Both the position numbers and the translations under genes were made by a program. A stretch of DNA of 32,000 nucleotides from Candidatus Saccharimonadota bacterium (lineage in GTDB: Bacteria; Patescibacteriota; Gracilibacteria; UBA1369; 2-02-FULL-48-14). The stretch is taken from NCBI GenBank assembly GCA_041661045.1, contig JBAZVE010000001.1:570001-602000 (forward strand), in the 5' to 3' direction. The notes beneath the pieces were generated by a model. That model was not told the origin of the DNA. It was given only the letters and a program-made list of their open reading frames with translations, and ran no database searches. This document shows, piece after piece, positions 961 to 26,271 of the stretch. Numbering within the stretch: the stretch's first letter is position 1; the number at the start of each line of letters is the position of its first letter.

Positions 961-2043
961 ATGAAAAAAATTGAATTCCAGATCGATTCGATTCAGCCCA
1001 TTGGGGCTAATGTGGTGCATATAAAACTGGTTCCTAGAAATCCTGCTCAAAGAATTTTCTATCGGCCGGGTCAGTATGGCCTCATCTCTTTTTTTAATGG
1101 AGATTCGGTGTCTAAAGAAAGGCCGTTTTCTTTTTTAAGTTCACCTCTTGAGGATGGAACCCTAGAGTTTGGCTTCAAGGTTTTTGGAGAATTTACATCG
1201 CAATTTGCAGATCTAAAGAAGGGGGACCGCGTTTTTGTGCGTGGGCCCTTTGGATCCTTCACTTTTGATGAGAACAAATACAGTGACACCCTGTTTCTCA
1301 GTGCGGGGATTGGCATCACTCCCTTCGTCAGTATTTTCCGCTATGCAAGCGCGAAAAAACTCCCTAACAAATTGCGACTTCTCTACAGCAATAAGGCCAG
1401 CAAAGAGACGCCATTCTATGCTGAGCTCAAAGCTCTTGAAGCCACAAATCCCAATTTGAAAACTGATTTTTATGTTACCAGCAAAGATGAAATCGCTCCT
1501 CAAGGATTTACCGCTGGACGGATCAACCAAGAGGAAATTACGAAAGCCATCAGTGGCGATATTTCTGGAAAGACATTTTTCATTTGTGGGCCGCAGCTGT
1601 TTCACGATTCAATGGTGGATATTTTGAGGGCAATGGGAGTGAAAGAACGGAACATTAAAACGGAAGGATTCACGCTTTCACCGCGGTCTTTTTTTGAACG
1701 AGGGACTTGGGCCTTTCCAATGGTGGCGGGAGCTTCTGCCGTTGTAATACTGGCGAGCCTGTATGCGGTTTATGATTATGAGACAGAAAAGCAACTGGCC
1801 TACCAAGAGACCCAGGCTTTGACTCAGATGCAAATTGAAGAAATGACTTCGATGAATGAAGAAATCATAGAGAATAAAAATGCTTTGCTGACTGAACAAA
1901 AAGCGAATACTCGAACTATTTACACGACCACCACTCAAACAACTCCTTCCGTGATAGAGCCCACCACTCCTCCGGTTACAACCCCGACCACACCGCCCGC
2001 CACACCTCCAGTCACGGTTCCTCCTCGAACGACTGTTTCTTAA
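961..2043 (+). CDS. FNR-like FAD/NAD(P)H-binding oxidoreductase with C-terminal membrane anchor and Thr/Pro-rich tail
   Basis: Ferredoxin-reductase-type motifs are present: RPFSF (RxYS-type FAD site), GPFGSF, SAGIGITPF (NAD(P)H GxGxxP), FFICGP. One TM helix (WAFPMVAGASAVVILASLYAVY) is followed by a TTTTQTTPSVIEPTTPPVTTPTTPPATPPVTVPP tail (nt 1921-2040). The ORF track starts at GTG 916; ATG 961 (MKKIEF) is preferred. Confidence 0.75.
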   Translation: MKKIEFQIDSIQPIGANVVHIKLVPRNPAQRIFYRPGQYGLISFFNGDSVSKERPFSFLSSPLEDGTLEFGFKVFGEFTSQFADLKKGDRVFVRGPFGSFTFDENKYSDTLFLSAGIGITPFVSIFRYASAKKLPNKLRLLYSNKASKETPFYAELKALEATNPNLKTDFYVTSKDEIAPQGFTAGRINQEEITKAISGDISGKTFFICGPQLFHDSMVDILRAMGVKERNIKTEGFTLSPRSFFERGTWAFPMVAGASAVVILASLYAVYDYETEKQLAYQETQALTQMQIEEMTSMNEEIIENKNALLTEQKANTRTIYTTTTQTTPSVIEPTTPPVTTPTTPPATPPVTVPPRTTVS

Positions 2044-2052
2044 TCCAATTTT

Positions 2053-2340
2053 ATGAAAAAAACTTTATGCTTACTTTTGATTTTTTTGCTCACGCTTACG
2101 GGTGGTGTTTTTGTTTCGCAAAATGTGAGTGCTGAAGATGATGAGGACGAAGATGAGTATGAAGAGGAAGAGGAGGAAGATGAAGACGAGGAAGAAGGGG
2201 AGGATGAGCAAGTTCAAGTTGAAGAAACCGTCCCCACTCAAACCACGATCATCAAACAAGTTATTATTCCGGATATTGTTGTCACCGATGACAATGAAAA
2301 TGGAATTGTTGATGCGGTGGAAGAGCTCTTTTATCAGTAA
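2053..2340 (+). CDS. small secreted poly-acidic protein with EF-hand-like Ca-binding loop
   Basis: 95 aa. Signal-peptide-like N-terminus (MKKTLCLLLIFLLTLTGGVFVSQNVSA), a ~40-residue D/E tract, and a C-terminal DDNENGIVDAVE that fits the 12-residue DxNxNGxxDxxE loop. Sits tightly between flanking genes. Confidence 0.6.
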   Translation: MKKTLCLLLIFLLTLTGGVFVSQNVSAEDDEDEDEYEEEEEEDEDEEEGEDEQVQVEETVPTQTTIIKQVIIPDIVVTDDNENGIVDAVEELFYQ

Positions 2341-2344
2341 AAAA

Positions 2345-3244
2345 ATGTTTCGCACACATTCATTCAAGGCTTTCGATACCACAGTTGTGTTAGGGTTTAG
2401 TGCCGACGAAAGCGAAGCGCAAAAACTCATTCACTATTGTGAAAAAGAGGCGGAAAAGTTTGAGGCAAAGTTCAGTCGTTTTATCCCAACAAGTGAAGTG
2501 AGTCAGTTGAACACTGCCATGGGTGCAGAGCTTGAAGTGAGTGATGAAATGATCGAACTTGTCACTCAAGCAAAAAAAGCTTATGAACTGAGCAAGGGTC
2601 TCTTTGATCCCACGATTTTAAACGCCCTCAAGTTGATTGGTTACAATAAAAGTTTTAGTGTGGAGCCCGATGATAGCTCGGACGGCGAGCAAGATTTCAA
2701 TGAAAGGCCTCGACTGGAATCGCTGAAAATTGGCAAGAATACCTTGCAAGCCCCTGAAGGTTTTTGCCTTGATTTGGGCGGCATCGCAAAGGGCTATTGG
2801 GTCGATAAGATGGCAAAAGTCTTGGCGAAGTCCCATCAAAACTTTTGGATATCTGCAGGGGGGGACATGTATATGAAGGGGAAACAGGAGGATGGCAATC
2901 TTTGGGAAATAGGTGTACAAAATCCTAGGAGCTTGGAAGAAGATTTGCTCCGCTTGAAAATTCGGGAAGAAGGTCAGGGTATCGCCACTTCCGGTATCGC
3001 GAAAAGGCAGGGAATAAGAAACGGAATACCTTGGCATCACCTCATAGATCCGAGAACTGGTTTACCGACTCAAAACTCCATTCTGGCGGTTACTGTTCTC
3101 GCAAACTCCACCATGCAGGCGGATGTGATGGCGAAAGTCGTTCTTGTCCTGGGCGTTGAAAAGGGAATGGAATACTTGGCTGCGGACCCGAGCATAAAAG
3201 GTTTGATCATCGATCAGAATTTAAACATTCACTCCACATTATGA
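2345..3244 (+). CDS. apbE: ApbE-family FAD:protein FMN transferase
   Basis: Family motifs FDTTVVLGF, LGGIAKGYWVD and HHLIDPRTGLP are present. Start placed at ATG 2345 (MFRTHSF), because the upstream part of ORF 2129..3244 is a K/R-rich out-of-frame reading of the acidic-protein gene. The stop overlaps the next start (ATGA). Confidence 0.85.
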   Translation: MFRTHSFKAFDTTVVLGFSADESEAQKLIHYCEKEAEKFEAKFSRFIPTSEVSQLNTAMGAELEVSDEMIELVTQAKKAYELSKGLFDPTILNALKLIGYNKSFSVEPDDSSDGEQDFNERPRLESLKIGKNTLQAPEGFCLDLGGIAKGYWVDKMAKVLAKSHQNFWISAGGDMYMKGKQEDGNLWEIGVQNPRSLEEDLLRLKIREEGQGIATSGIAKRQGIRNGIPWHHLIDPRTGLPTQNSILAVTVLANSTMQADVMAKVVLVLGVEKGMEYLAADPSIKGLIIDQNLNIHSTL

Positions 3245-3972
3245 GCAGTTCACTCTACCAAAATTCATCACCTGTAGATACCGATTTAGACGGCCTCACC
3301 GATCAAGGCGAGCTTATGCTTTTTTTTACGGATCCCAATAATACTGATTCCGATGGGGATGGGTATTGGGATGGGACGGAGGTTTTGTATGAAACAAATC
3401 CTTTAGATGCCAATGATCCTGCTCAGGCGACAACGGAACTTCCGGATCAAGATATTGCATGGTCTTGGGTTCTTGCTCGAGTTTCTGGAATCACCAGTTA
3501 CTTGCTCCTTTTTGTTCTGATGATTTTAGGAGTGGGCATATCTTCGGGTTACATCTTTCGGCTGGTCGGTCCCATTGTTGCATGGCGCATTCACAGGGCA
3601 ACGGGGATCACGCTTATGGCTTTTGTATTCATCCACTTGGTGGCCTTGTTTCTCGATGACTTCATGAACTTTTCGATTCTCGATCTGTTCGTACCTTTTT
3701 ATTCTGAATTCAGCCCCACATACATGAGTTTGGGCATCATTGGTTTTTATCTTTTGGCGATCATCGTGCTGAGTTCCATCTTCATGATCGTCACCAAATA
3801 CAAGGCGTGGCGCTTTTTGCACTACTTAACTTTCCCCGTTTTTGTCGCACTCTTTATTCATGGCGTTTTTCTTGGTTCTGACACAGGCAGTTTAGCAATG
3901 CAAATCACATACTGGGTCACCGGTGTGCTCGTGGCGTTTTCCTTTGCATACCGCGTGGTGAAGGCTTTGTGA
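3241..3972 (+). CDS. ferric-reductase-domain (NOX/MsrQ-like) bis-heme membrane protein with N-terminal DxDxDG Ca-loop repeats
   Basis: 243 aa with about 5 TM helices. There are two histidine pairs in alternate helices: H118-x13-H132 (RIHRATGITLMAFVFIH) and H194-x12-H207 (HYLTFPVFVALFIH). This is the spacing of the heme ligands in NOX/FRE ferric-reductase domains. The N-terminus carries DTDLDGLTDQGE and DSDGDGYWDGTE loops. Confidence 0.7.
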   Translation: MSSSLYQNSSPVDTDLDGLTDQGELMLFFTDPNNTDSDGDGYWDGTEVLYETNPLDANDPAQATTELPDQDIAWSWVLARVSGITSYLLLFVLMILGVGISSGYIFRLVGPIVAWRIHRATGITLMAFVFIHLVALFLDDFMNFSILDLFVPFYSEFSPTYMSLGIIGFYLLAIIVLSSIFMIVTKYKAWRFLHYLTFPVFVALFIHGVFLGSDTGSLAMQITYWVTGVLVAFSFAYRVVKAL

Positions 3973-3981
3973 GGGTGGATT

Positions 3982-5649
3982 CTACGAGTTTTTTAAATGT
4001 TCCGCTTGTCGCTCTGCAGCTATCTGGTCCCTCTCATCTTGAGCAAGATTGCGTACATCGAATACAGGCCAATCTGGATTTTTTTCTGGGTCATCTTCTA
4101 TCTTTGGATCTTTTTGTCGCTGTTCTTGTATGGCAAAAGGATTAGACAATAAAGCGAGTCCTTTGTCCCCCTTTGCCTGATCCGAAAGGAAATGAACGAC
4201 TACACTGGTGATGCTCAAGGTTATTTCTTTGATCTTCTCCTCCATTGAGGCGATTTCCCTCACGAAGTCGGCTTGGCGTCCTATGCCATTTAGATACCTA
4301 TAAGTTCTTTCGAACTGAGCTTTATAATCTTTTACTCGTTCATCCTCCTCCAGTAAGCTTTCGACTTCTTCTTCGATGTGAACCGTCAAAGGGACTCCGG
4401 CATTTCCTTGGCGATTGTTGAACCAGGCTTGGAGGGTCTGGTTTTCTTTCAAAGCTTGGAAGACGATGTCCCGAATGGCGCAGTAGCTTGAACCCATATA
4501 ACCCCGATATTTTTCTCCGGCCGCAGGAAGCGTTAAGGCGCAAGCCTGAAGGAATAGGGGTTTTGGATAGAGGTCGGTTTTCATAAAATCGAGAAAAGCT
4601 TCCAGGGAAGGGAAAATGTCTCTTGCATCTATACCCTTCTTTAGTCGTTCAGTAGGTGCCTCCAGAACCTCTCGAAGTTTCCCCGTTTTTTCGTCTATCT
4701 CAAGGATCAAGCTGTCTTCTGGCGCAGGGGAAAAATGTTCGACGACGAGATTCTCTAGGATCGGGATCTCTGTATCAAAACTAAAAAAACTCACCGGGGA
4801 GTTTTTTCCGATTCGGAGTTCTTGAGCAAGAACCCCATGTTCTCTCAAGAGTCCGAGAAATTGTCGGGCTTGACCGGCATTTTTTAATCCAGCCAACTCT
4901 TCCTGCATGCGTGTTAAAATCAGTTTTTTTGCCTCTCGTATCACCAAATCGTAGTCCTCTCTTGCAATGCTATACTTTACTGTAGGGGTTGAGGGTTCCA
5001 CGTCAGAGTCCTGCCCTCCTTGGCTCTGAGAATATTCAGTATAAGCTGCATGGACTCGTTCGTCCTGCTCTCGAATGAGAGCAGTGAGTCTTTTGGCGGA
5101 GGCATCAACTTCAGGGTCTAAATCATCTCTGGAATAAGCGATTTCTGTTCCAGGAGCTTCAGATTCTGGGAAGAGGAGGGAAAGGTAGACTTCTTGAATG
5201 AATTGAGTGGCCGATAAACCTTGGAACACTTGCTCTACGGCCTGACCTTTACTTAGGGCTGCGAGCATCTTGATTGCGAAGGCTCGCTGAGGCATAGGGG
5301 CAGGGATGTGCATAATGTCTTCCTCTAGCTGGGTATCTCCCAAGCGAGCTCTGTTCAGTCTTTTTTCCTGTGTTTCAAGCATGTCACGCAAATATTTTTC
5401 GACAGCCCTTCGTACTTGTATTACCGCATCCAATCCTTTGGGGAATGCTTCGTCCCGCAGTAATTGGATAAAAGTATCGGACATTCGTTTGAGTACGGTG
5501 GCCATTTTGTCGGCTTCTCCTACTGGGCTTTGACGGATCACATTTGTAGTGCGCTCTTGAAGAATTCGGTCTAATTCAGCTAAATTCGTTTCCAATTCAG
5601 CAAAGAGGCCTGCATTTTCTGGCGAAACATCAAGGGGGGTAGGGGCCAT
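3982..5649 (-). CDS. hypothetical protein (555 aa, acidic, helical, no recognised domain)
   Basis: Long uninterrupted ORF with ATG start and protein-like composition, preceded by a good sigma70-like promoter. No motif recognised. Confidence 0.7.
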   Translation of the reverse strand: MAPTPLDVSPENAGLFAELETNLAELDRILQERTTNVIRQSPVGEADKMATVLKRMSDTFIQLLRDEAFPKGLDAVIQVRRAVEKYLRDMLETQEKRLNRARLGDTQLEEDIMHIPAPMPQRAFAIKMLAALSKGQAVEQVFQGLSATQFIQEVYLSLLFPESEAPGTEIAYSRDDLDPEVDASAKRLTALIREQDERVHAAYTEYSQSQGGQDSDVEPSTPTVKYSIAREDYDLVIREAKKLILTRMQEELAGLKNAGQARQFLGLLREHGVLAQELRIGKNSPVSFFSFDTEIPILENLVVEHFSPAPEDSLILEIDEKTGKLREVLEAPTERLKKGIDARDIFPSLEAFLDFMKTDLYPKPLFLQACALTLPAAGEKYRGYMGSSYCAIRDIVFQALKENQTLQAWFNNRQGNAGVPLTVHIEEEVESLLEEDERVKDYKAQFERTYRYLNGIGRQADFVREIASMEEKIKEITLSITSVVVHFLSDQAKGDKGLALLSNPFAIQEQRQKDPKIEDDPEKNPDWPVFDVRNLAQDERDQIAAERQAEHLKNS

Positions 5650-5730: not shown

Positions 5731-7101
5731 TTACAAACCCCGTAAGAAGTCCCACATTTCGGAGCCGGCTTCTTTGGGCCAAGTGTGGGGGTAGTATTCG
5801 CCGGAGTATTCGTCGTAATCGATGGTGTGTGGACACCAGAGAGTGGGGGCGTCTTCCAAGCAGTTTTGGTATTCCACGCAGTTTCCCCAGGTGGGTTCCA
5901 CGGGGGTGCTTGCCGCCGAACATTGGTTTTGGGCCAGGTAATCGTCGCGCGCGGTTTCGCCGGTGGAAAAAGGGGCTAAGTTGTCGGCGGGATTGTGCCA
6001 CTGCATCACGGCCACAGGGCCGCTGCAAGTTCCGGTGCTGCGCGCGCCGCCCAAAGTAACGACTCCGCGCAAAACATCCCCGCGCGCGCAAGCCAGGCTG
6101 TTGGTGAACCAGGCGCCCAGGGAGTGTCCCGCCGCATAGACTTCATCTGTGTTCACGCAATAAGTGCTGGTGAGCTCCTCATACATAAGATCAAAAAACT
6201 CAAAATCCCTCAGCTCATCCGCGCTGTCTCCGGAATCGGACCAAGTGAAACTGGAGCCGTTGCTGAGTCCCGCGGGGTAGACAAAAATAGCCTCGCCTTC
6301 GCCCGCTTTTTCCAAGCGGTAATAACTTCTTACTTGTGTGTTTGGGTTCGTTCGTCCGTGAAAAGCAAAGAGGAGAGGCAGGGGCTCGTCTTTGTTGTAA
6401 TTTTCCGGAATCACCACAATGGCAGACCGTTCCACTCCGTTTACCGTGAAGGAAGTGGGGGCCTCCGCCGGTGGAGTGCTTCCGCAGCCCGCGGAGCCAG
6501 CACTGCGTTCGGTGGACACCTCTTGTACCCCGCTAAAAATCCGGAGCATCTGGTGAATGGTGAAGGCCATTTCATCCCGCTGTGCTGATTGATCGGGGAA
6601 ATAACTGTATTTGGAAAAAATATTATTGTTGTGGACAAAGTCTATGTAAGGTTCAAACCAATCTTCGCCCTCTTCCGCTTCTTCGTGCATCAAGCCAAAG
6701 GCCTCAATTGCGATTTTAAAAGCCTCCACCGCATTCACTTCTTGTTCGGGGTGGTACAAGCCGTCCGGATAACCCTGTACAATTCCGAGTTCCTTGGCCC
6801 TGCAAACAAAAGGTGCAAACCATTCTTCCTGAACATCCGGGAAACAGCCGCCGGGGCCCTCGGAGGCATCCTCATCGAGCGCCGCAAAAACAATCTTTAA
6901 GAGTTCCGCTCGGTTGATGCTTGCTTCCGGTTTAAAGCTGCCGTCCGGATAGCCCTCGAGAATTCCTTGTTCCTGCAACAACTCGATGCTTTCTTGGTAC
7001 GGGTTTCCTTCAATGTCTGAAAAACTGGCTTCAACTGTGAATGAGAAAGCAAGGCTCAAAAGGAGCACACTGGCCGAGCACTTTAGAAGAAAGGATTTCA
7101 T
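5731..7101 (-). CDS. secreted SLH-domain protein with C-terminal PHB-depolymerase/feruloyl-esterase-family serine esterase
   Basis: Start taken at MKSFLLKCSASVLLLSLAFSF (signal peptide; ATG at 7101). Repeated SLH-like units are present (FSDIEGNPYQESIELLQEQGILEGYPDGSFKPEASINRAELLKIVF; FPDVQEEWFAPFVCRAKELGIVQGYPDGLYHPEQEVNAVEAFKIAI). The esterase part carries FHGRTN and the GHSLG nucleophile elbow. Confidence 0.8.
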   Translation of the reverse strand: MKSFLLKCSASVLLLSLAFSFTVEASFSDIEGNPYQESIELLQEQGILEGYPDGSFKPEASINRAELLKIVFAALDEDASEGPGGCFPDVQEEWFAPFVCRAKELGIVQGYPDGLYHPEQEVNAVEAFKIAIEAFGLMHEEAEEGEDWFEPYIDFVHNNNIFSKYSYFPDQSAQRDEMAFTIHQMLRIFSGVQEVSTERSAGSAGCGSTPPAEAPTSFTVNGVERSAIVVIPENYNKDEPLPLLFAFHGRTNPNTQVRSYYRLEKAGEGEAIFVYPAGLSNGSSFTWSDSGDSADELRDFEFFDLMYEELTSTYCVNTDEVYAAGHSLGAWFTNSLACARGDVLRGVVTLGGARSTGTCSGPVAVMQWHNPADNLAPFSTGETARDDYLAQNQCSAASTPVEPTWGNCVEYQNCLEDAPTLWCPHTIDYDEYSGEYYPHTWPKEAGSEMWDFLRGL

Positions 7102-7163
7102 GTCTTGAGTATACAGCAGTTCAGCTTGTGTTAAAGTGTCCACGATATATAAACTTCCATTCT

Positions 7164-13273: not shown

Positions 13274-14026
13274 ATGAATTCAAGGCAAAAGGCACTTCGA
13301 CTCGAGGCGTTGGAGCTCATTTCAAGAATGGGAGAGGGGTCCAGTGGGCGGATGCTTTCGTCCATTGATCTTATTGAAGGGCTTTATTTTGGAGAAGAAA
13401 ATGGTCGACAGATTTTTAAACATGACCCCCGTTTGCCCCAGTGGGAAGAGCGAGATTATTTTGTACTCTCAAAAATTGAAGCTTTGCCGGGACTCCACGC
13501 GGTTTTGAAAAAAGCGGGATATTCTTTGCCGGAGGTGTTGCCCTTTTTCCCAAATCGTAAGGTCCCGGGAGTGGAAGTGACCACAGAGCAACACGGGTAT
13601 GGACTTTGTATGGCGGTGGGGATGGCGCAGGCGATTCAAATTGGGCGACTCAATCAACATGTTTTTTGTTTGGTTGGAGATTATGAATTGGATCATGGCT
13701 CTGCTTGGGAGGCGATTATGGTTGCGGCGGAGCGAAAGCTGGATCGCTTGTGTTTGATTTTGGATGAGAACAGTCCCAATGACATTTTGTGGCAAGAACG
13801 CTTTGAATCTTTTGGGTGGAAAGTGATTAAACTGCGGGATGCCCACGATCACGATGAAATTGTGTATGGAATCATGAAGGCTCGCCTCACGCTGCGAAAA
13901 CCCACTTGTATCTGGGCACCCACCAAGAAATCGGCCGGAGTCCCTTTTGCGGAGCGAAAAGTTGAATATGATGACGCTGTTTTTTCGGAAATGGAACTGC
14001 AGGAAATCCGTACCCATCTTCTCTGA
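13274..14026 (+). CDS. transketolase N-terminal-subunit-like protein (divergent, probably degenerate)
   Basis: Collinear by hand with split-transketolase N subunits: LSSIDLIEGLYF, RDYFVLSK, PGVEVTT, VGDYELDHGSAWEAIMVAA, LILDEN, FGWKVI. However, positions normally holding conserved His or Gly residues are substituted (see findings). Confidence 0.7.
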   Translation: MNSRQKALRLEALELISRMGEGSSGRMLSSIDLIEGLYFGEENGRQIFKHDPRLPQWEERDYFVLSKIEALPGLHAVLKKAGYSLPEVLPFFPNRKVPGVEVTTEQHGYGLCMAVGMAQAIQIGRLNQHVFCLVGDYELDHGSAWEAIMVAAERKLDRLCLILDENSPNDILWQERFESFGWKVIKLRDAHDHDEIVYGIMKARLTLRKPTCIWAPTKKSAGVPFAERKVEYDDAVFSEMELQEIRTHLL

Positions 14027-14421: not shown

Positions 14422-15366
14422 ATGGCTAACGCAAAAAATCTCCGCGTCTTCTCCGGCTCTTCCAATCCCGCATTGGCGATGGCCATTGCCAAGGCATTGA
14501 AACTGCCGCTTTCTAAGATGCAAATCACTCGGTTTGCCTGCAACGAAATTTACGCGAAACCGGAGGAAACGGTACGAGGCATGGATGTGTTTTTGGTGCA
14601 AACTTGTACGGATAATGTGAATGAAGATTACATGGAACTTTTCATCATGATTGATGCGCTCAAGCGTTCTTTTGCCAAGACGGTGCACCTTGTGATTCCC
14701 CATTTTGGATATGCGAGGCAAGACCGCGTGGCTTCACCACGAGAACCGATTTCGGCCAAACTCATGGCCAGTCTCATTGCGGCCGCTGGGGCGGATCATG
14801 TGATTTCCATTCACTTTCATAGCGATCAAACGCAGGGATTTTTCCCTTTCCCAATGGACAACTTGAAGACCAAACGCTTATTTGCGGATTATTTGAAGAA
14901 GAAAAAACTCAAAAATGCGGTGATTGTGGCTCCGGATGCCGGTGCGGCCAAGGAAGCCGGGCGGCTCGCCAGCTTTTTGGACATGCCTTTGGCGGTGCTC
15001 ACCAAAGAGCGACCCAAGTTCAATGTTGCGGAGGTCACCTCGGTGGTGGGGGATGTGGAAGGGAAAACTTGTATTTTGTTGGACGACATGGTCGACACGG
15101 CCGGATCGGTTTGTGCCGCTCACCAAGCTTTGCTCAAGAGTGGGGCCAAGAAAGACATTTATTTGATGGCGACGCATGCGGTGTTTTCCGGTCCCGCTGT
15201 GGAACGGCTCAAGAAAACCAAGTTCAAGGAAGTGATTGTAACCGATACGATTCCGGTTCCAAAAGAAAAACAATTCCCCGGCCTCACCGTGCTTTCGGTG
15301 GCGCCCATGCTCGCGAAAGTGATTCAATGTGTGCATGAAGATAAATCTGTAACCGATGCATTATGA
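14422..15366 (+). CDS. prs: ribose-phosphate pyrophosphokinase (PRPP synthetase)
   Basis: 314 aa with the typical Prs N-terminus (LRVFSGSSNPALA), YARQDRV, VIVAPDAGAAKEA and the PRPP loop ILLDDMVDTAGS. Confidence 0.95.
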   Translation: MANAKNLRVFSGSSNPALAMAIAKALKLPLSKMQITRFACNEIYAKPEETVRGMDVFLVQTCTDNVNEDYMELFIMIDALKRSFAKTVHLVIPHFGYARQDRVASPREPISAKLMASLIAAAGADHVISIHFHSDQTQGFFPFPMDNLKTKRLFADYLKKKKLKNAVIVAPDAGAAKEAGRLASFLDMPLAVLTKERPKFNVAEVTSVVGDVEGKTCILLDDMVDTAGSVCAAHQALLKSGAKKDIYLMATHAVFSGPAVERLKKTKFKEVIVTDTIPVPKEKQFPGLTVLSVAPMLAKVIQCVHEDKSVTDAL

Positions 15367-15806
15367 AGGTTTATATTGGGGCCGATCACGCTGGGTTTCC
15401 TCTTAAAGAAATTTTGCGTGAGCATATAAAAGGGCAGGGGCATGAGGTGATTGATCTTGGGACTTTTAACGAAGACTCTGTGGATTACCCGGACTTGGCA
15501 AGGGAGGTGGGGGAAAAAGTGCGGGAAAATCGGGAGAGCCGCGGCGTTTTGGTGTGTGGCACGGGTATTGGGGTGGCGATTGCCGCTAATAAGCTCAAAG
15601 GTATTCGTGCCGCCAATGTGCACGACCGCAGCGAGGCCGAGCTTTCCAGAAAACACAACAATGCCAATATTGTGACGATTGGAGGACGAGTGATGGATGA
15701 AGACACCGCAAAAGGAGTGGTGGACATCTTTTTAAGTACCGCTTTTGAAGGTGGACGGCATGAGGCTCGCATCGCAAAAATAACCGCCATTGAGAATGAA
15801 GAATAA
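15363..15806 (+). CDS. rpiB: ribose-5-phosphate isomerase B
   Basis: MKVYIGADHAGFPLKE and GVLVCGTGIGVAIAANKLKGIRAA are present. 147 aa. ATGA overlap with the prs stop. Confidence 0.95.
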   Translation: MKVYIGADHAGFPLKEILREHIKGQGHEVIDLGTFNEDSVDYPDLAREVGEKVRENRESRGVLVCGTGIGVAIAANKLKGIRAANVHDRSEAELSRKHNNANIVTIGGRVMDEDTAKGVVDIFLSTAFEGGRHEARIAKITAIENEE

Positions 15807-16431
15807 AATTCAAATCGCCCCCTCCATTTTGTCGGCTGATTTTGGGAAGCTCAATGAAGAAATTGCGAGTGTGGAAGAATACGCGGACATTATTAGTGTG
15901 GACATTATGGATGGACATTTTGTCCCAAACATCACGGTGGGCATGCCCGTGGTGAAATGCATCAAAACCAAACTCCCCATTGAATGTCATTTGATGATTG
16001 AGAACCCGGAACGCTACATTGAAGGTTTTGCGAAGGCAGGGGCCTCCATCATTTCCGTTCACTTTGAAGCCACCGGTGCCAACACAGCCGCCGTTCTCCA
16101 AAAAATCCGTGATTTGGGTTGTCGTGCATCTTTGGCCATTAAACCCGCTACGCCCGCCGCTGCTATTGAAGAATTTTTGCCGCTTATGGATGCCTGTGTG
16201 GTGATGAGTGTGGAACCCGGTTTTGGCGGACAGGAATTCATGCCGCAAGCTCTGGAAAAAATCACCTTTTTGCGAGCTAAAAAACCGGATCTGGATATTA
16301 TTGTGGATGGGGGGATCAATGCCGAGACCGCCAAACTCTGCGTCCAGGCCGGAGCCAACATCTTGGTGGCAGGTTCAACTATTTTTACCGCGGACAACCG
16401 AATTTCCGCTATCGCAAGCCTAAGATCTTGA
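15796..16431 (+). CDS. rpe: ribulose-phosphate 3-epimerase
   Basis: IAPSILSADFGKLNEEI, DIMDGHFVPNIT, VEPGFGGQEF and VDGGIN are present. ATG 15796 is preferred over TTG 15790. Overlaps the rpiB 3' end by 11 nt. Confidence 0.95.
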   Translation: MKNKIQIAPSILSADFGKLNEEIASVEEYADIISVDIMDGHFVPNITVGMPVVKCIKTKLPIECHLMIENPERYIEGFAKAGASIISVHFEATGANTAAVLQKIRDLGCRASLAIKPATPAAAIEEFLPLMDACVVMSVEPGFGGQEFMPQALEKITFLRAKKPDLDIIVDGGINAETAKLCVQAGANILVAGSTIFTADNRISAIASLRS

Positions 16432-16653: not shown

Positions 16654-17304
16654 TTACCCCAGCTTCAGTTTCTTCTTTTCTTTGTGAATCCAGAAGATTC
16701 CGCCGAAGAAGAGGAGGGTGAAGATGGTGAGGAAGAGGGGGTCGGTGAAGGCCGCGCCACTTCCAATATAGGCAAGGCTGAAGGCGCAGATAGCATTGGC
16801 GAGTATGGAAACGGGGACAAACACCCGTTTCTTTAGTTTAGAAAATCCCATGAAATAGGCGGCGTAGTCGCCGGGGAGTAAGGGGATGGAACAAAGGACA
16901 AAGTAGAATAAGACTGCTTTTTCTGATTCAATGAGTTCATCGTATTTGTGAAGCTCTTCTTCTTCCACAAATATTTTTAAAATGTTGCGACCAAAGCGAC
17001 GGCCTAAAAAGAAATTGATTTCGGTGGCCACAATGCGGGCGACCCAAGTGAGCAAGAAGGCGGGGAGCGTTCCATACACAAAACCGCCCGCCAGACCCAC
17101 CAGGGTGGAGTTGAGCGGCACCACAATCACTGTGATGGTGGTTATGATGAAGTAGAGCAGAAAACCCCAGACGCCCCATCCTTGGATAAGTTCCTGCAGG
17201 GCTTCACGGTCGGGGATTTCTTGGAAAACAAGATACGGCACTACAAAAGCGAAGAAGATAAAGGCCAAGAAAGCCACTAGGCTGACTTGAATCTTTTTAC
17301 TCAT
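16654..17304 (-). CDS. TVP38/TMEM64 (DedA/VTT-domain) family membrane protein
   Basis: 216 aa polytopic membrane protein. The pattern VVPLNSTLVGLAGGFVYGTLPAFLLTWVARIVATEINFFLGRRFGRNIL and LPGDYAAYFMGFSKLK is typical of this family. Confidence 0.8.
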   Translation of the reverse strand: MSKKIQVSLVAFLAFIFFAFVVPYLVFQEIPDREALQELIQGWGVWGFLLYFIITTITVIVVPLNSTLVGLAGGFVYGTLPAFLLTWVARIVATEINFFLGRRFGRNILKIFVEEEELHKYDELIESEKAVLFYFVLCSIPLLPGDYAAYFMGFSKLKKRVFVPVSILANAICAFSLAYIGSGAAFTDPLFLTIFTLLFFGGIFWIHKEKKKLKLG

Positions 17305-17707
17305 TTATAGACCCCGTAGGGTTGGGCTGCGTGTTATCAGGCCCGTTTGCGTCCTCTTTGGGTTGGTCGATTTGAGCGTCATCAAGATCACCGTCATTGC
17401 CTCCTTGCATGATTTGTGCAGTTATCACATCGTCGGCGGAATCCAGTGGATCCATCTTGTTTGCTAATTCTGTTCCATCGGGAGCTCCTCCGCCGTCACT
17501 GTCCTTCTCTTTTGGATCGGTGCCCAAATCCGCCTCAAGGGCATCCGTCAAACCGTCTCCATCTGTGTCCACGGATTGGACTTTACCCCAACGACCCTCC
17601 AAGAAGTCTGCGTCACTTAGGGCAAAGGCGCCAAGACCTAAAACTAAAACACCGGCGAGCATCAAGAGTTGAGGGTTTTTCATGGGATTTTTTAAAGATT
17701 TCTTCAT
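17297..17707 (-). CDS. secreted protein with thrombospondin-type-3/EF-hand-like DxDxDG repeats
   Basis: Start preferred at MKKSLKNPMKNPQLLMLAGVLVLGLGAFA (ATG 17707; ATG 17683 is also possible). The longer form from 17770 would overlap the divergent promoter. Loops DTDGDGLTDALE and DSDGGGAPDGTE are present. 8 nt overlap with the downstream gene. Confidence 0.65.
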   Translation of the reverse strand: MKKSLKNPMKNPQLLMLAGVLVLGLGAFALSDADFLEGRWGKVQSVDTDGDGLTDALEADLGTDPKEKDSDGGGAPDGTELANKMDPLDSADDVITAQIMQGGNDGDLDDAQIDQPKEDANGPDNTQPNPTGSINE

Positions 17708-17761
17708 GGGTTCTTTGTACCCCTTTCCCGGCGGCTTTTCAATGGTGAGTTTTTGGAAATA

Positions 17762-17789
17762 TTGACTCAATAATTTCGAGTGTTATGAT
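17762..17789 (+). promoter_or_regulatory. sigma70-like promoter for the 17811 gene
   Basis: TTGACT (17762-17767), a 16 nt spacer, then TATGAT (17784-17789), about 21 nt upstream of ATG 17811. Confidence 0.4.
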
Positions 17790-25512: not shown

Positions 25513-25563
25513 ACTTGATGTAAGCGCTTTCTGCAGGGGATAGCATTGACAAATACAGATAAA

Positions 25564-26271
25564 ATGTTAATATTCCAGTACGATGATTTTCCTACAAAGT
25601 CTTTACGGGTTGATTCTGGCCGAGCTGTTGGGTATTCACTTGAGTGCACGGGCGCAACTTCGACTCGCACAAGTGATTTCTGTGGAGAGAAAACACCGGA
25701 CTTTAACGCGTTGATTATGCACAGACTTCTTGGGAAAGATCCTTTGGATGCTCCTGTCGGGCCGCTTGCGGAGCACCTTCAAGTTTCTCAAAGGAAGGAG
25801 CGCGCAGATGGAGATCTCCTTTTGTCACTTTTGGGATCAGACTTTGGTGAAGTGGAGCAACTGTGGTGGCAGCACTTAAAAACAGGGACTTTTTTGCCGA
25901 GTTTTGGGCCTCGTTTGCACCAGGTTCTTCAGCGCTCTGGCTGGCAACTTTTGGATGAAAGATTTATGTCCCAAGCGCCCATTTCTCGTCACGCTTTGGC
26001 CACTAGAGCGATGCTCGGAGGTTTTCCAGATCTTTCCATGGGCATTTGTGTTCAACGAGCTTTACAAGAAACTTTACAGCCTGCTTTACAGGTTTCTTTT
26101 CGGACTCAAGGGCCGAAAACGCTTGGGCGTTTATGGCCGGGCTTTGTGGAAATGGTTCGTGGACCGTCTGGCTCCAAACCTGAACCCTTTTTTTGTGCCG
26201 AGTCTAACTTCCAAGTTTTGGAGGCCGCTTCTCCACTGACTTTTGTAAGGCCCCCTAATCCTAAGAAATGA
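25564..26271 (+). CDS. hypothetical protein (235 aa from ATG 25564; TTG 25546 alternative)
   Basis: Long ORF with no motif recognised. Its stop overlaps the next start (ATGA). Confidence 0.5.
   Translation: MLIFQYDDFPTKSLRVDSGRAVGYSLECTGATSTRTSDFCGEKTPDFNALIMHRLLGKDPLDAPVGPLAEHLQVSQRKERADGDLLLSLLGSDFGEVEQLWWQHLKTGTFLPSFGPRLHQVLQRSGWQLLDERFMSQAPISRHALATRAMLGGFPDLSMGICVQRALQETLQPALQVSFRTQGPKTLGRLWPGFVEMVRGPSGSKPEPFFCAESNFQVLEAASPLTFVRPPNPKK

What the first reader, a model, noticed from the sequence alone, without database searches (positions are those of the whole stretch)
961..3972. Split NOX-like transmembrane electron-transfer cluster: FNR-like reductase + acidic secreted protein + ApbE flavin transferase + bis-heme ferric-reductase-domain protein
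Four tightly packed co-directional genes make up the cluster:
- A membrane-anchored FAD/NAD(P)H reductase with RPFSF, GIGITPF and CGP motifs.
- A secreted poly-acidic protein.
- ApbE.
- A membrane protein whose His pairs are spaced H-x13-H and H-x12-H in alternate helices. In eukaryotic NOX2, H101/H115 and H209/H222 show the same spacing, as do ferric-reductase domains generally.

Together the first and last genes reconstitute, as separate polypeptides, the dehydrogenase and heme domains of an NADPH-oxidase/ferric-reductase. ApbE next to them suggests a flavinylated extracytoplasmic partner. However, I could not find a [ST]GA[ST]-type flavinylation motif in any neighbouring protein, and this ApbE has no obvious signal peptide or lipobox. 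For an organism with otherwise minimal redox metabolism, this may be its route for moving electrons across the membrane, for example to iron, oxygen or a surface protein.
Basis: partly seen in the sequence, partly recalled or inferred. Interest (0 to 1): 0.65.

Follow-up and report, generated by a model that had tools for sequence, protein, structure and literature searches.

The report
Split NOX-like electron exporter with ApbE
A tiny-genome (CPR, Peribacteria) bacterium carries a conserved four-gene module that should move electrons from NAD(P)H across the membrane through two haems, and it is paired with a signal-less flavin-attaching enzyme and an unusual tethered tail that may be a new kind of flavin carrier.

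Summary
Window 961-3972 holds four tightly packed + strand genes:
- an FNR-like FAD/NAD(P)H reductase with one membrane helix and a tail;
- a secreted acidic protein;
- ApbE with no signal peptide;
- a ferric-reductase-domain (FRD) cytochrome b. Its only four His are the H-x13-H and H-x12-H ligands, invariant in 23 homologs.

ApbE and the FRD gene are adjacent in all 18 loci examined, from several CPR lineages and Chloroflexota. A relative (P0085) fuses TSP3, FRD and FNR in one chain. The "split NOX" reading is therefore supported.

The system belongs to the published "MsrQ-like" class of ApbE-associated electron-transfer systems, but as a new variant:
- The FRD is NOX-type (two haems), not MsrQ-type.
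- No FMN-bind, DUF2271 or DUF3570 acceptor is present.
- ApbE is leaderless throughout the clade.
- The reductase's membrane helix and tail form a conserved module that stands alone in other loci. It consists of an anchor, a stalk helix, a disordered Thr/Pro linker and a terminal motif (P-R-T-x-V-S-COOH, core T-x-x-S).

I propose this tail end as a non-canonical flavinylation site. That step is inferred, and it conflicts topologically with a cytoplasmic ApbE unless the tail is modified before export. The terminal electron acceptor is unknown.

The parts
961..2043 (+). FNR-like reductase fused to the 'tail module' (360 aa). The true start is ATG 961, not GTG 916.
   Evidence: Pfam FAD_binding_6 and NAD_binding_1. 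Orthologs start MKKIEF / MRKIEF. The AF2 model has mean pLDDT 85.4.
961..1671 (+). Cytoplasmic FAD/NAD(P)H-binding FNR-fold domain (aa 1-237). It carries RPFSF (nt 1120-1134), GIGITPF (1306-1326), CGP (1585-1593) and the terminal aromatic TEGF (1660-1671).
   Evidence: pLDDT is above 90. Foldseek matches: flavohaemoglobin reductase domain 2e-20, NqrF, cytochrome b5 reductase, SpNOX dehydrogenase domain 1.3e-18.
1705..1776 (+). Single transmembrane helix (aa 249-272), predicted N-in / C-out.
   Evidence: Hydropathy 1.98. Flanks are basic before and acidic after the helix (sequence). It is the start of one continuous helix 251-316 in the AF2 model.
1777..1908 (+). Extracytoplasmic stalk helix (aa 273-316) with the conserved segment ..IIENKNALLTEQKANT..
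   Evidence: AF2 helix with pLDDT 80-90. Similar segments occur in stand-alone tail proteins.
1909..2022 (+). Disordered Thr/Pro-rich linker (aa 317-354).
   Evidence: pLDDT 40-58 with no secondary structure. After the membrane helix the chain is 27% Thr and 13% Pro.
2023..2040 (+). Conserved C-terminal motif P-R-T-T-V-S-COOH (aa 355-360). It is the candidate non-canonical ApbE acceptor site (inferred).
   Evidence: In 34 homologs ending T-x-x-S: P(-6) 32/34, R(-5) 23/34, T(-4) 34/34, V(-2) 23/34, S(-1) 34/34. The background frequency of T..S in the linkers is 1.8%. The same T-x-x-S end occurs on stand-alone tail proteins.
2053..2340 (+). Secreted acidic protein (95 aa): signal peptide about aa 1-27, poly-Asp/Glu run aa 28-60, EF-hand-type Ca2+ loop DDNENGIVDAVE (nt 2287-2322).
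   Evidence: The loop is present in 9/9 orthologous small proteins. A related module, whose loop does not match the pattern used, is fused to the N-terminus of the FRD in P0022, P0023 and P0027.
2345..3244 (+). Leaderless ApbE-family FAD:protein FMN transferase (299 aa). The catalytic His is aa 232 (nt 3038-3040).
   Evidence: PF02424 2.6e-61. Best solved relatives are Listeria FmnB 7esa (2.8e-28) and V. cholerae ApbE 6nxi, and the His aligned with the residue mutated in 6nxj is conserved. There is no hydrophobic segment, and 33/33 sampled homologs are leaderless.
3241..3972 (+). NOX-type ferric-reductase-domain cytochrome b (243 aa, 5 TM). Its start overlaps the ApbE stop (ATGA).
   Evidence: PF01794 36.8 bits. 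AF2 pLDDT 85.9. Foldseek top hits are NOX5, SpNOX, DUOX1, STEAP2 and NOX2. The profile hits STEAP4 and SpNOX by sequence.
3277..3411 (+). N-terminal acidic tail with two bacterial TSP3 (Ca2+-binding) repeats. There is no signal peptide or TM1 in this lineage.
   Evidence: PF18884. D13, D15, D17, D36, D38 and D40 are invariant. Homologs have a signal peptide or TM1 in front, but the window and its closest relative L007 do not.
3592..3861 (+). Four haem-ligand His codons: H118 (3592-3594), H132 (3634-3636), H194 (3820-3822), H207 (3859-3861). Predicted pairs are H118/H194 (inner haem) and H132/H207 (outer haem).
   Evidence: These are the only four His in the protein and are invariant in 23 homologs. 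The pairing is by analogy with NOX, from established knowledge and PMC12525009.

Best explanation
The four genes encode one membrane complex that carries electrons from cytoplasmic NAD(P)H to the outside of the cell. It is a NOX or ferric reductase built from separate polypeptides, in a Peribacteria (CPR) cell that has no respiratory chain.

Proposed path:
1. NAD(P)H reduces non-covalent FAD in the FNR-like domain of gene 1. The domain is held at the membrane by its own helix.
2. FAD reduces the inner haem (H118/H194) and then the outer haem (H132/H207) of the FRD protein.
3. The outer haem reduces an extracytoplasmic carrier, which reduces an external acceptor.

The carrier I propose is FMN attached by the co-encoded ApbE to the terminal Ser (or the Thr three residues before it) of the P-R-T-T-V-S tail. 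This tail ends a roughly 44-residue stalk helix and a roughly 44-residue disordered linker on the reductase itself, making a tethered flavin. Because ApbE has no export signal, the tail would be flavinylated in the cytoplasm, where FAD is available, and then threaded out as an unfolded chain.

The acidic EF-hand protein and the TSP3 repeats form a Ca2+-dependent, cation-binding cap on the outer face. Likely end acceptors are Fe(III) or another metal cation, or O2. The benefit would be NAD(P)+ regeneration and/or iron reduction.

Shown here: domain identities, ligand conservation, gene linkage, gene fusions, motif conservation and predicted topology. Inferred: cofactor loading, direction of electron flow, tail flavinylation and its timing, and the acceptor.
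For: Domains and motifs.

NOX-type FRD:
- Four invariant His, which are the only His in the protein.
- Structural matches to NOX5, SpNOX, DUOX, STEAP and NOX2.
- His rather than the Arg of MsrQ/STEAP at the inner site.

FNR fold that reduces haem partners in its relatives.

Gene fusions linking the parts:
- P0085 fuses TSP3, FRD and FNR.
- P0022, P0023 and P0027 fuse an acidic Ca-binding-type module to the FRD.

Gene linkage:
- ApbE is adjacent to the FRD gene in 18/18 loci, from Peribacteria, Peregrinibacteria, Gracilibacteria, Niyogibacteria, Falkowbacteria, Saccharimonadales, other Patescibacteria and Anaerolineales.
- The flanking genes are not conserved.

Tail module:
- It is present in the 15 loci whose upstream sequence could be read, either fused to FNR or alone. 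The locus without DNA has two small upstream genes at the same position.
- It always ends in T-x-x-S or variants: a Cys loop C-Q-T-T-P-S-G-R-C-I, or repeated T-S-A-S.
- T-x-x-S has the same spacing as the canonical [S/T]-G-A-[S/T] motif.

No canonical acceptor domain appears in any neighbourhood table or in the window.

Literature precedents:
- ApbE + PF01794 + PF00175 clusters form a recognised electron-transfer class (PMC8238504).
- Experimentally confirmed flavinylation sites lie on an unstructured C-terminal extension of FMN_red proteins (PMC11334425).
- Cytosolic ApbEs exist and work with cytosolic FAD (PMC12052999).
- D-to-A, G-to-A and A-to-V substitutions in the motif are tolerated in part.

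AF2 of gene 1 gives a confident FNR domain, one long TM-plus-stalk helix and a disordered end.
Against: - No cofactor, activity or modification has been measured.
- The tail motif lacks the Gly-Ala core and the Asp that every proven ApbE substrate has.
- ApbE is predicted to be cytoplasmic, while the tail end is predicted to be outside. Export of a pre-flavinylated tail has no precedent that I know of.
- The FNR-like domain is missing from 7 loci, so NAD(P)H is not the universal donor, or the reductase is encoded elsewhere.
- The window FRD lacks TM1 or a signal peptide in front of a 73-aa acidic N-tail.
- CPR bacteria are not known to make haem (own knowledge).
- The Foldseek E-values for the FRD model are weak (0.15), although the probabilities are 0.97-1.0.
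- Many loci are related, so the counts are not all independent.
Confidence: 0.55

Rival explanations
1. The electron-transfer core is the same, but ApbE works only in the cytoplasm on a cytoplasmic site. Candidates are the FNR-like domain, or the cytoplasmic face of the FRD near the invariant S179, where MsrQ and STEAP hold a flavin. This would install a covalent FMN relay between NAD(P)H/FAD and the inner haem. The conserved tail end then has another role, such as docking onto the FRD/Ca2+ cap, attachment to the wall or S-layer, or glycosylation.
For: - ApbE is leaderless in the window and in 33/33 homologs.
- Cytosolic ApbEs flavinylate cytosolic enzymes.
- MsrQ and STEAP bind a flavin at the inner site, with a conserved Ser near N5.
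- S179 is invariant here.
- Flavinylation can evolve from non-covalent flavin sites.
Against: - Both inner-site His are invariant, so the inner site should hold haem, not flavin.
- The cytoplasmic loops of the FRD are only about 6-13 residues long and carry no [ST]-x-x-[ST] motif conserved across the family.
- The FNR-like domain is absent from 7 loci that still keep ApbE.
- This reading gives no explanation for the strict conservation of the tail terminus next to apbE.
Confidence: 0.2
2. The module is a dedicated assimilatory ferric (metal) reductase. Poly-acidic, Ca2+-type loops concentrate Fe(III) or other cations at the outer haem, which reduces them directly. ApbE and the tail are accessory or unrelated to catalysis.
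For: - The family name and relatives (STEAP, FRE) are metalloreductases.
- Acidic stretches recur as the separate acidic protein, the TSP3 N-tail and the poly-Asp ends of the Falkowbacteria-type tails.
- Meheust et al. link MsrQ-like clusters to iron uptake via VIT1.
Against: - No iron transporter (VIT1, FeoB, etc.) is in the window cluster or in the neighbourhood tables.
- It does not explain why ApbE is adjacent to the FRD gene in all 18 loci.
- The acidic/TSP3 parts are missing in Falkowbacteria, Saccharimonadales and Anaerolineales loci.
- This rival concerns the end acceptor and is compatible with the best explanation.
Confidence: 0.15
3. It is an MsrPQ-like repair system. The haem protein feeds electrons to an extracytoplasmic methionine-sulfoxide or other molybdo-reductase.
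For: PF01794 includes MsrQ. Source databases name some homologs 'methionine sulfoxide reductase heme-binding subunit' or 'YedYZ'.
Against: - No MsrP or molybdoenzyme gene is in the window or in any of the loci.
- The defining MsrQ feature, Arg in place of the inner His with one haem plus FMN, is not met.
Confidence: 0.03
4. The adjacency is fortuitous, and the four genes act independently.
For: No promoter or terminator signal above background was found to define an operon.
Against: - Spacers are 9 nt, 4 nt and a 4-nt overlap.
- The ApbE-FRD pair is kept in 18/18 loci across phylum-level distances, while the flanks change.
- Two kinds of gene fusion join the parts.
Confidence: 0.02

Closest known systems
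'MsrQ-like' flavinylation-associated transmembrane electron-transfer systems (Meheust et al. 2021, eLife, PMC8238504; Huang et al. 2024, mSystems, PMC11334425)
   Same: - apbE sits next to a PF01794 dihaem membrane protein.
- A PF00175 NAD-binding domain serves as the presumed cytosolic electron entry.
- The proposed flow runs from the cytosol to an extracytosolic flavin.
   Different: - The published clusters are mostly actinobacterial.
- They have an FMN-bind domain acceptor with an [S/T]GA[S/T] site and a secreted or lipidated component.
- The NAD-binding domain is usually fused to the C-terminus of the MsrQ-like protein.

In the window:
- There is no FMN-bind, DUF2271 or DUF3570 acceptor.
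- ApbE is leaderless.
- The reductase is a separate membrane-anchored chain.
- There is a conserved tail module and Ca2+-binding acidic parts.

That survey kept only clusters with a signal peptide on ApbE or on the acceptor. It reported CPR as strikingly under-represented, so clusters like this one would have been filtered out.
Prokaryotic and eukaryotic NADPH oxidases (CsNOX5, SpNOX, NOX2, DUOX)
   Same: - Two His pairs with 13/12 spacing on two helices.
- The FRD fold.
- An FNR-fold FAD/NAD(P)H dehydrogenase whose solved relatives include the SpNOX dehydrogenase domain.
- A fused homolog exists (P0085).
   Different: - In the window the dehydrogenase and haem domains are separate genes.
- The dehydrogenase's own TM helix follows it rather than preceding it.
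- TM1 of the FRD is absent.
- ApbE, the tail and the acidic protein have no NOX counterpart.
- O2 reduction is untested.
E. coli MsrQ-Fre two-component NOX-like system (cited in PMC12525009 and PMC8238504)
   Same: An FRD-family membrane protein is reduced by a separate FNR-family NAD(P)H flavin reductase.
   Different: - MsrQ has one haem plus non-covalent FMN (Arg77 replaces a His) and serves the molybdoenzyme MsrP.
- Fre is soluble and encoded elsewhere.
- The window protein has four His, there is no MsrP, and the reductase is membrane-tethered and co-transcribed.
Listeria flavin-based extracellular electron transfer (FmnB/PplA; cited in PMC8238504 and PMC9973259)
   Same: - An envelope that is Gram-positive-like (own knowledge).
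- An ApbE-family enzyme: FmnB is the best solved match of the window ApbE.
- A membrane-tethered flavinylated carrier outside the cell serves NAD+ regeneration.
   Different: - Listeria uses Ndh2, demethylmenaquinone and EetA/B, not a dihaem FRD.
- FmnB is a lipoprotein.
- PplA has folded FMN-bind domains with canonical motifs.
- FAD is exported by a dedicated transporter.
Cytosolic ApbE enzymes (Klebsiella pneumoniae second ApbE; trypanosomatid fumarate reductase ApbE domain; PMC12052999)
   Same: They have no signal peptide and act with cytosolic FAD.
   Different: Their substrates are soluble cytoplasmic reductases with canonical FMN-bind motifs. No such substrate is linked to the window ApbE.
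ApbE-flavinylated FMN_red proteins with C-terminal extension (Huang et al. 2024)
   Same: The flavinylated Ser/Thr sits on an unstructured C-terminal extension rather than in an FMN-bind domain.
   Different: - Those extensions carry canonical motif-like sequences and fold back onto a flavin pocket of the same soluble protein.
- Here the extension crosses the membrane and ends in T-x-x-S without Gly-Ala.

Membership tests
Ferric-reductase-domain (FRD) superfamily, NOX-type (two haems) | Match to the Pfam Ferric_reduct (PF01794) profile above the curated cut-off | tested here: met
   36.8 bits against a cut-off of 28, E 4.5e-9, profile positions 2-120 of 121.
Ferric-reductase-domain (FRD) superfamily, NOX-type (two haems) | Two bis-His pairs, H-x13-H and H-x12-H, on two alternate TM helices, conserved in the family | tested here: met
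   H118/H132 and H194/H207. They are the only His in the protein and are invariant in 23 homologs.
Ferric-reductase-domain (FRD) superfamily, NOX-type (two haems) | Cofactor-binding helical core (h2-h5) with the FRD fold. Six TM helices are usual, but h1 and h6 vary between members (PMC12525009). | tested here: met
   AF2 model pLDDT 85.9. Foldseek top hits are NOX5 TM 5o0t, SpNOX, DUOX1, STEAP2 and NOX2, with probability 0.97-1.0 but E about 0.15. The window protein has 5 TM because h1 is missing, whereas most homologs have it.
Ferric-reductase-domain (FRD) superfamily, NOX-type (two haems) | Binds two b-type haems | not testable with these tools
   Needs spectroscopy of the expressed protein.
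MsrQ proper (MsrPQ) | Inner-site His replaced by Arg (one haem plus non-covalent FMN) | tested here: not met
   The window has W-R-I-H118-R with the His invariant. The MsrQ/STEAP rule is taken from PMC12525009.
MsrQ proper (MsrPQ) | Encoded with the periplasmic molybdoenzyme MsrP | tested here: not met
   No such gene is in the window or in any neighbourhood table.
Single-chain NADPH oxidase (NOX) | FRD and FAD/NADPH dehydrogenase domains on one polypeptide | tested here: not met
   They are separate genes at 961-2043 and 3241-3972. A fused relative, P0085, exists.
Single-chain NADPH oxidase (NOX) | FNR-type FAD and NAD(P)H binding motifs | tested here: met
   RPFSF, GIGITPF and CGP. Pfam PF00970 and PF00175, with weaker PF08030 and PF08022. 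Foldseek to the SpNOX dehydrogenase domain 1.3e-18.
Single-chain NADPH oxidase (NOX) | Reduces O2 to superoxide or H2O2 | not testable with these tools
   Needs an enzyme assay.
ApbE FAD:protein FMN transferase | ApbE domain with catalytic His and FAD/Mg2+ motifs | tested here: met
   PF02424 2.6e-61. DLGGIAKGY, SAGGDMY, ATSG and WHHLIDPRTG are present. H232 aligns with the His mutated in 6nxj.
ApbE FAD:protein FMN transferase | N-terminal signal peptide or lipobox. This is usual but not universal, since cytosolic ApbEs are known. | tested here: not met
   The protein starts MFRTHSFKAFDTT, at the start of the ApbE domain (profile position 15 of 266), and has no hydrophobic segment. The same holds in 33/33 homologs.
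ApbE FAD:protein FMN transferase | A substrate with the D-x-x-[S/T]-G-A-[S/T] motif encoded nearby | tested here: not met
   None in any ORF of 80 aa or more in the window. No FMN-bind, DUF2271 or DUF3570 in the neighbourhood tables. The rest of the genome was not searchable.
Flavinylation-associated 'MsrQ-like' system (Meheust 2021) | A PF01794 gene within five genes of apbE | tested here: met
   They are adjacent and overlapping in the window and adjacent in all 18 loci.
Flavinylation-associated 'MsrQ-like' system (Meheust 2021) | Signal peptide or lipidation site on ApbE or on an FMN-bind/DUF2271/DUF3570 gene (their operational filter), and an FMN-bind acceptor | tested here: not met
   ApbE is leaderless and no acceptor domain is present. 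The filter is described.
Flavinylation-associated 'MsrQ-like' system (Meheust 2021) | NAD-binding (PF00175) domain as the cytosolic donor module | tested here: met
   Present, but on a separate membrane-anchored polypeptide.
Tail module (undescribed family proposed here) | N-in single TM anchor, helical stalk, low-complexity Thr/Pro/Ala linker and a terminal T-x-x-S (commonly P-R-T-x-V-S-COOH), encoded beside a leaderless apbE and an FRD gene | tested here: met
   Window aa 249-360. No Pfam family matches the stand-alone tail proteins.
Tail module (undescribed family proposed here) | Terminal Ser/Thr carries covalent FMN | not testable with these tools
   Needs co-expression with ApbE followed by fluorescence and mass spectrometry.

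The most novel reading that the evidence does not exclude
A large clade of signal-less ApbE enzymes in CPR bacteria and Chloroflexota has a new kind of substrate. The substrate is not a folded FMN-bind domain but the very end of an intrinsically disordered, membrane-tethered tail (P-R-T-x-V-S-COOH, Cys-loop and T-S-A-S repeat variants).

The tail would be flavinylated in the cytoplasm and then exported unfolded. This would remove the need to secrete FAD. The result is a 'flavin on a leash' that picks up electrons from the outer haem of a NOX-type cytochrome b and carries them through the wall or S-layer to external acceptors. CPR bacteria, thought to be nearly devoid of extracytosolic flavinylation and of membrane redox chemistry, would then have a widespread dedicated route for dumping NAD(P)H electrons outside the cell.
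Probability: 0.3. Interest if true: 0.85.

Novelty: new variant of a known kind. Interest (0 to 1): 0.7.

Why it matters
- **Redox balance in CPR.** CPR/Patescibacteria are fermentative, have no respiratory chain, and their redox balancing is an acknowledged gap. The Peribacteria genome paper calls redox recycling unclear. A conserved NAD(P)H-to-outside electron path would fill part of that gap and bear on how these episymbionts interact with hosts, iron and oxygen.
- **Flavinylation biology.** The main survey reported CPR as strikingly under-represented, but it required a signal peptide on ApbE or on the acceptor. This cluster shows a leaderless ApbE clade, tied in all 18 loci examined to a dihaem FRD and to a tail with a non-canonical motif. 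If the tail is the substrate, the ApbE recognition rule and the assumed site of flavinylation both need widening. The short terminal tag could also be useful for protein labelling.
- **Even without tail flavinylation.** The split, permuted NOX architecture with Ca2+-binding outer parts adds an unusual architecture to the bacterial NOX/FRD family.

Tried and rejected
- **Gene starts.** GTG 916 for gene 1 and GTG 2129 for ApbE were rejected in favour of ATG 961 and ATG 2345. Orthologs start there, and the 2129 extension is an out-of-frame reading of the acidic gene.
- **Acidic protein and ApbE as one frameshifted secreted ApbE.** Rejected. The two genes are in different frames in the window and separated by stops in the orthologs. 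In L005 the acidic module is fused to the FRD instead.
- **Stop-codon read-through joining tail and ApbE.** The genes are in frame only in L016 and L017, which is about the chance rate.
- **Missing TM1 or signal peptide of the window FRD as an assembly error.** Rejected. The closest relative L007 (83% identity) has the same start and the same ATGA overlap.
- **TGAT in ORF 25546-26271 as the ApbE site.** The ORF has no signal peptide or domain and lies 22 kb away. About one such tetrapeptide is expected by chance in the window's coding sequence (my rough estimate).
- **The search for related loci with the 14-sequence alignment.** It failed because there was no conserved stretch. A 5-sequence alignment gave only 5 loci.
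- **A1 profile against 1.8 billion representatives.** The TSP3 repeats attracted giant repeat proteins. Only about 30 full-length clusters and a few fused forms could be read from the top 150.
- **Promoter and terminator scan.** Nothing above the shuffled background.
- **Pfam on 10 tail and accessory proteins from other loci.** Nothing above threshold.
- **Literature.** No paper in the library combines Patescibacteria with ApbE, and the Saccharibacteria / ferric reductase / flavin transferase search returned nothing relevant.
- **MsrPQ reading.** Rejected; see the rival explanations.

Full report
**1. What is in the sequence**

Between 961 and 3972 there are four + strand genes separated by 9 nt, 4 nt and a 4-nt ATGA overlap. 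The next gene (3982-5649) is on the other strand, and the upstream gene (34-897) encodes a PspC-domain protein. Neither flank is conserved in related loci.

*Gene 1 (961-2043, 360 aa)*
- It matches FAD_binding_6 and NAD_binding_1, and more weakly the ferric-reductase versions NAD_binding_6 and FAD_binding_8.
- It carries RPFSF, GIGITPF and CGP.
- It has a single hydrophobic helix at aa 249-272.

*Gene 2 (2053-2340, 95 aa)*
- It has a signal-like N-terminus and a run that is 76% Asp/Glu.
- Near its end is a 12-residue EF-hand-type loop, DDNENGIVDAVE.

*Gene 3 (ApbE)*
- It is ApbE at 2.6e-61.
- Its real start is ATG 2345. The product, MFRTHSFKAFDTT..., begins at the start of the ApbE domain and has no hydrophobic segment.
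- The FAD/Mg2+ motifs and the catalytic His (H232) are intact. The best solved relatives are Listeria FmnB and V. cholerae ApbE.

*Gene 4 (3241-3972, 243 aa)*
- It matches Ferric_reduct above the curated cut-off, plus a bacterial TSP3 Ca2+-binding repeat.
- It has exactly four His, arranged H118-x13-H132 and H194-x12-H207.

That includes the two negatives: no leader on ApbE, and no canonical flavinylation motif nearby.

**2. Organism**

The window's proteins come from a 1,316,577-bp contig. The nearest loci are titled Candidatus Peribacteria (83% identity) and Peregrinibacteria. The rest of the window fits a CPR genome:
- pentose-phosphate enzymes, with the N-terminal half of transketolase as a separate ORF;
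- SLH-domain proteins;
- a penicillin-binding transpeptidase;
- ATP synthase subunit a.

The published Peribacteria genomes are described as lacking respiratory chains and having unclear redox recycling. That paper does not mention this cluster.

**3. The haem protein is NOX-type, not MsrQ-type**

- In an alignment of 23 homologs (29-64% identity) all four His are invariant.
- The MsrQ/STEAP subgroup replaces the first inner His by Arg and holds one haem plus a flavin. NOX and DUOX keep four His and two haems (PMC12525009).
- The window has W-R-I-H118-R, so the His is kept.
- An AlphaFold model (pLDDT 85.9) retrieves the NOX5 membrane domain, S. pneumoniae NOX, DUOX1, STEAP2, human NOX5 and NOX2 as its top solved matches. 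Probabilities are 0.97-1.0, TM-scores 0.38-0.51 and E about 0.15.
- The family profile also hits STEAP4 and SpNOX by sequence.
- With the N-terminus outside, H118/H194 lie near the cytoplasmic face and H132/H207 near the outer face, as in NOX.

One oddity concerns the N-terminus. All other homologs have a signal peptide or TM1 before the TSP3 repeats. The window and its closest relative start directly with the acidic TSP3 tail and share the same ATGA overlap. The loss is therefore real and lineage-specific.

**4. Linkage and fusions**

I examined 18 loci:
- the window;
- L001-L017 (L018 duplicates part of L017 and ends before the FRD position);
- one JGI contig without DNA.

ApbE and the FRD gene are adjacent in all of them. 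The lineages are named Peribacteria, Peregrinibacteria, Gracilibacteria, Niyogibacteria, Falkowbacteria, Saccharimonadales, unclassified Patescibacteria and Anaerolineales (Chloroflexota).

Two kinds of fusion tie the other genes in:
- P0085 (495 aa, Patescibacteria) is TSP3 + Ferric_reduct + FAD_binding_6 + NAD_binding_1 in one chain, a conventional NOX layout. Its FNR part is 41% identical to gene 1.
- P0022, P0023 and P0027 (about 400 aa) carry an acidic Ca-binding-type module at the N-terminus of the FRD.

The AF2 model of gene 1 has a confident FNR fold. Its closest solved relatives are reductase domains that feed haem partners: flavohaemoglobin, cytochrome b5 reductase, NqrF and the SpNOX dehydrogenase domain. 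The "split NOX" interpretation is thus well supported at the level of sequence, structure prediction and comparative genomics.

**5.

In seven loci there is no FNR-like gene (L004, L005, L006, L012, L014, L017 and the JGI contig). In the six with DNA a small protein of 84-179 aa sits there instead. The JGI contig shows two small genes of about 106 aa at the same position. The small protein has:
- an N-in membrane anchor;
- a helical segment;
- a Thr/Pro/Ala/Ser-rich linker;
- an end such as ...TKTKTS...KKTKTS...TTTRTS...PRTTIS...TTTKTS or ...FMTSGS.

The C-terminal third of gene 1 has the same design and ends in ...PPRTTVS. AF2 gives one continuous helix 251-316 (TM plus stalk), then a disordered stretch to the end. 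Gene 1 is therefore an FNR-like domain fused onto a conserved tail protein.

The 120 best homologs of gene 1 fall into these groups:

| Group | Count |
|---|---|
| End in T-x-x-S (P at -6 in 32, R at -5 in 23, T at -4 in 34, V at -2 in 23, S at -1 in 34) | 34 |
| Same motif followed by 1-4 residues | 9 |
| End in a Cys-bounded loop, C-Q-T-T-P-S-G-R-C-I (mostly Saccharimonadales-type) | 43 |
| Long tails (Falkowbacteria-type) with several P-x-T-S-A-S-A-P repeats and a poly-Asp end | a few |

The surrounding linkers cannot be aligned, and T..S occurs at only 1.8% of their positions. The common core is T-x-x-S. This is the same spacing as the canonical ApbE site [S/T]-G-A-[S/T], in which the last residue receives FMN. 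No tail protein matches any Pfam family.

**6. ApbE without a leader**

The 33 close ApbE homologs that I read all start no more than about 25 residues before the first conserved strand. They include Chloroflexota sequences. This is a clade property and not an annotation slip.

Cytosolic ApbEs are known, and they flavinylate cytosolic fumarate reductases. No such substrate is linked here. No neighbourhood table lists FMN_bind, DUF2271, DUF3570 or NqrB/RnfD, and the window has no canonical motif.

**7. Mechanism proposed, and how sure each step is**

*Well supported (about 0.75).* NAD(P)H reduces FAD in the FNR-like domain, FAD reduces the inner and then the outer haem, and electrons leave the cell.

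*Inferred (about 0.4).* The immediate acceptor is FMN esterified by ApbE to the tail terminus.

Points in favour of the tail:
- Apart from the FRD gene itself, it is the one partner found next to apbE in each of the 15 loci whose upstream sequence could be read.
- Its conserved residues are hydroxyl residues with the right spacing.
- Confirmed flavinylation on an unstructured C-terminal extension exists for FMN_red proteins.
- Mutational work shows that the Asp, Gly and Ala positions of the motif are partly dispensable, with A-to-V keeping about 50% flavinylation.

Points against:
- No proven substrate lacks the Gly-Ala core.
- The tail end should be outside the cell, judging by the positive-inside rule, the PT-rich linker and the disulfide-loop variant, whereas ApbE should be inside.

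The simplest reconciliation is modification in the cytoplasm before the unfolded C-tail is translocated. This would also spare the cell from exporting FAD, but it has no precedent that I know of.

The main rival keeps ApbE's action in the cytoplasm, on the FRD or the FNR domain. It leaves the tail with a docking or anchoring role (0.2).

*Acidic parts.* The acidic EF-hand protein (present in 9 of 9 loci of the Peregrinibacteria-to-Parcubacteria group), the TSP3 repeats and the poly-Asp tail ends all point to cation binding at the outer face. That fits Ca2+-dependent assembly, metal (Fe(III)) reduction, or both. These parts are absent from the Falkowbacteria, Saccharimonadales and Anaerolineales loci, so they are accessory.

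**8. Comparison with what is known**

ApbE + PF01794 + PF00175 clusters were described as "MsrQ-like" flavinylation-associated systems in 2021. They were mostly actinobacterial and had an FMN-bind acceptor. That survey required a signal peptide on ApbE or on the acceptor and found CPR strikingly under-represented. The window cluster would have failed that filter.

The E. coli MsrQ-Fre pair is the known two-component NOX-like precedent, but it differs in cofactors and partner. No paper in the searched library combines ApbE with Patescibacteria, and the Saccharibacteria search returned nothing relevant.

I therefore class the finding as a new variant of a known kind. The electron-transfer logic is known. 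The new elements are:
- the leaderless ApbE clade;
- the tail module with its terminal motif;
- the Ca2+-binding parts;
- the permuted, split architecture.

**9. Caveats**

- Everything is computational.
- Many loci are related, and the counts are not phylogenetically corrected.
- The genome outside the window could not be scanned for a canonical acceptor.
- Haem supply in a CPR cell is unexplained.
- The electron donor in loci without the FNR-like domain is unknown.
- How the window FRD exports its N-tail without a signal sequence is unknown.

Noticed in passing
window 3241-3460; L007 about 5780-6470: The window FRD protein and its closest relative lack the signal peptide or TM1 that all other homologs have. 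They start directly with a 73-aa acidic TSP3 tail (MSSSLYQNSSP...). The single TM helix of gene 1 might substitute structurally for the lost helix.
   Followed up: partly
window 17297-17770 (-) and 16654-17304 (-): A second small protein with a bacterial TSP3 repeat (157 aa) is encoded next to a VTT/DedA-family membrane protein. TSP3-type Ca2+ modules seem to be used repeatedly on this organism's surface.
   Followed up: no
window 5731-7143 (-) and 22556-24673 (-): Two SLH-domain proteins. The first also resembles an extracellular short-chain PHA depolymerase or esterase (NCBIfam 5e-20). This implies an S-layer-anchoring wall polymer that any exported electron carrier would have to cross.
   Followed up: no
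window 3982-5649 (-): A 555-aa ORF convergent with the cluster has no Pfam or NCBIfam match, and no homolog in any of the fetched loci.
   Followed up: partly
window 25546-26271 (+): A 241-aa ORF with no family match contains the window's only [ST]GA[ST] tetrapeptide (ECTGATST). It has no signal peptide and is judged to be chance.
   Followed up: partly
window 13274-14026 (+): Only the N-terminal (thiamine-diphosphate) half of transketolase is encoded by this ORF, as in split transketolases. PRPP synthase, RpiB and Rpe follow at 14422-16431.
   Followed up: no
window 18687-21983 (-): A 1098-aa protein combines an N-terminal Cro/C1-type HTH with many TPR repeats.
   Followed up: no
L014 1881-2480: A second tail-like protein (199 aa) lies upstream of the regular tail gene. 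It ends in a Cys-rich segment (...CGSSDSS...CKGKAPGSNLCSVG...WTCAGQDGGSSATCRCS). It may be a disulfide-stabilised variant of the acceptor, like the Saccharimonadales Cys loop.
   Followed up: no
L015 6001-7551 (P0072) and relatives P0066, P0067, P0078: Falkowbacteria-type reductases have 250-aa tails with 3-5 repeats of P-[TV]-T-S-A-S-A-P and a poly-Asp C-terminus. The same locus also has a separate tail protein ending PTTKVS. The repeats could be multiple flavin sites.
   Followed up: partly
L006 5018-5980: The ApbE gene in this metagenomic contig is called as 223 aa, and the rest of the domain continues in another frame. This is either a frameshift or an assembly error.
   Followed up: no
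L016 757-2174: In the Saccharimonadales locus an FMN_red-family gene and a sortase gene lie 4-5 kb upstream of the cluster. Their relevance is unknown.
   Followed up: no
L017 4351-4734: The Anaerolineales cluster has an extra 127-aa membrane-anchored, Gln-rich coiled-coil protein in front of the tail gene, in place of the acidic protein.
   Followed up: no
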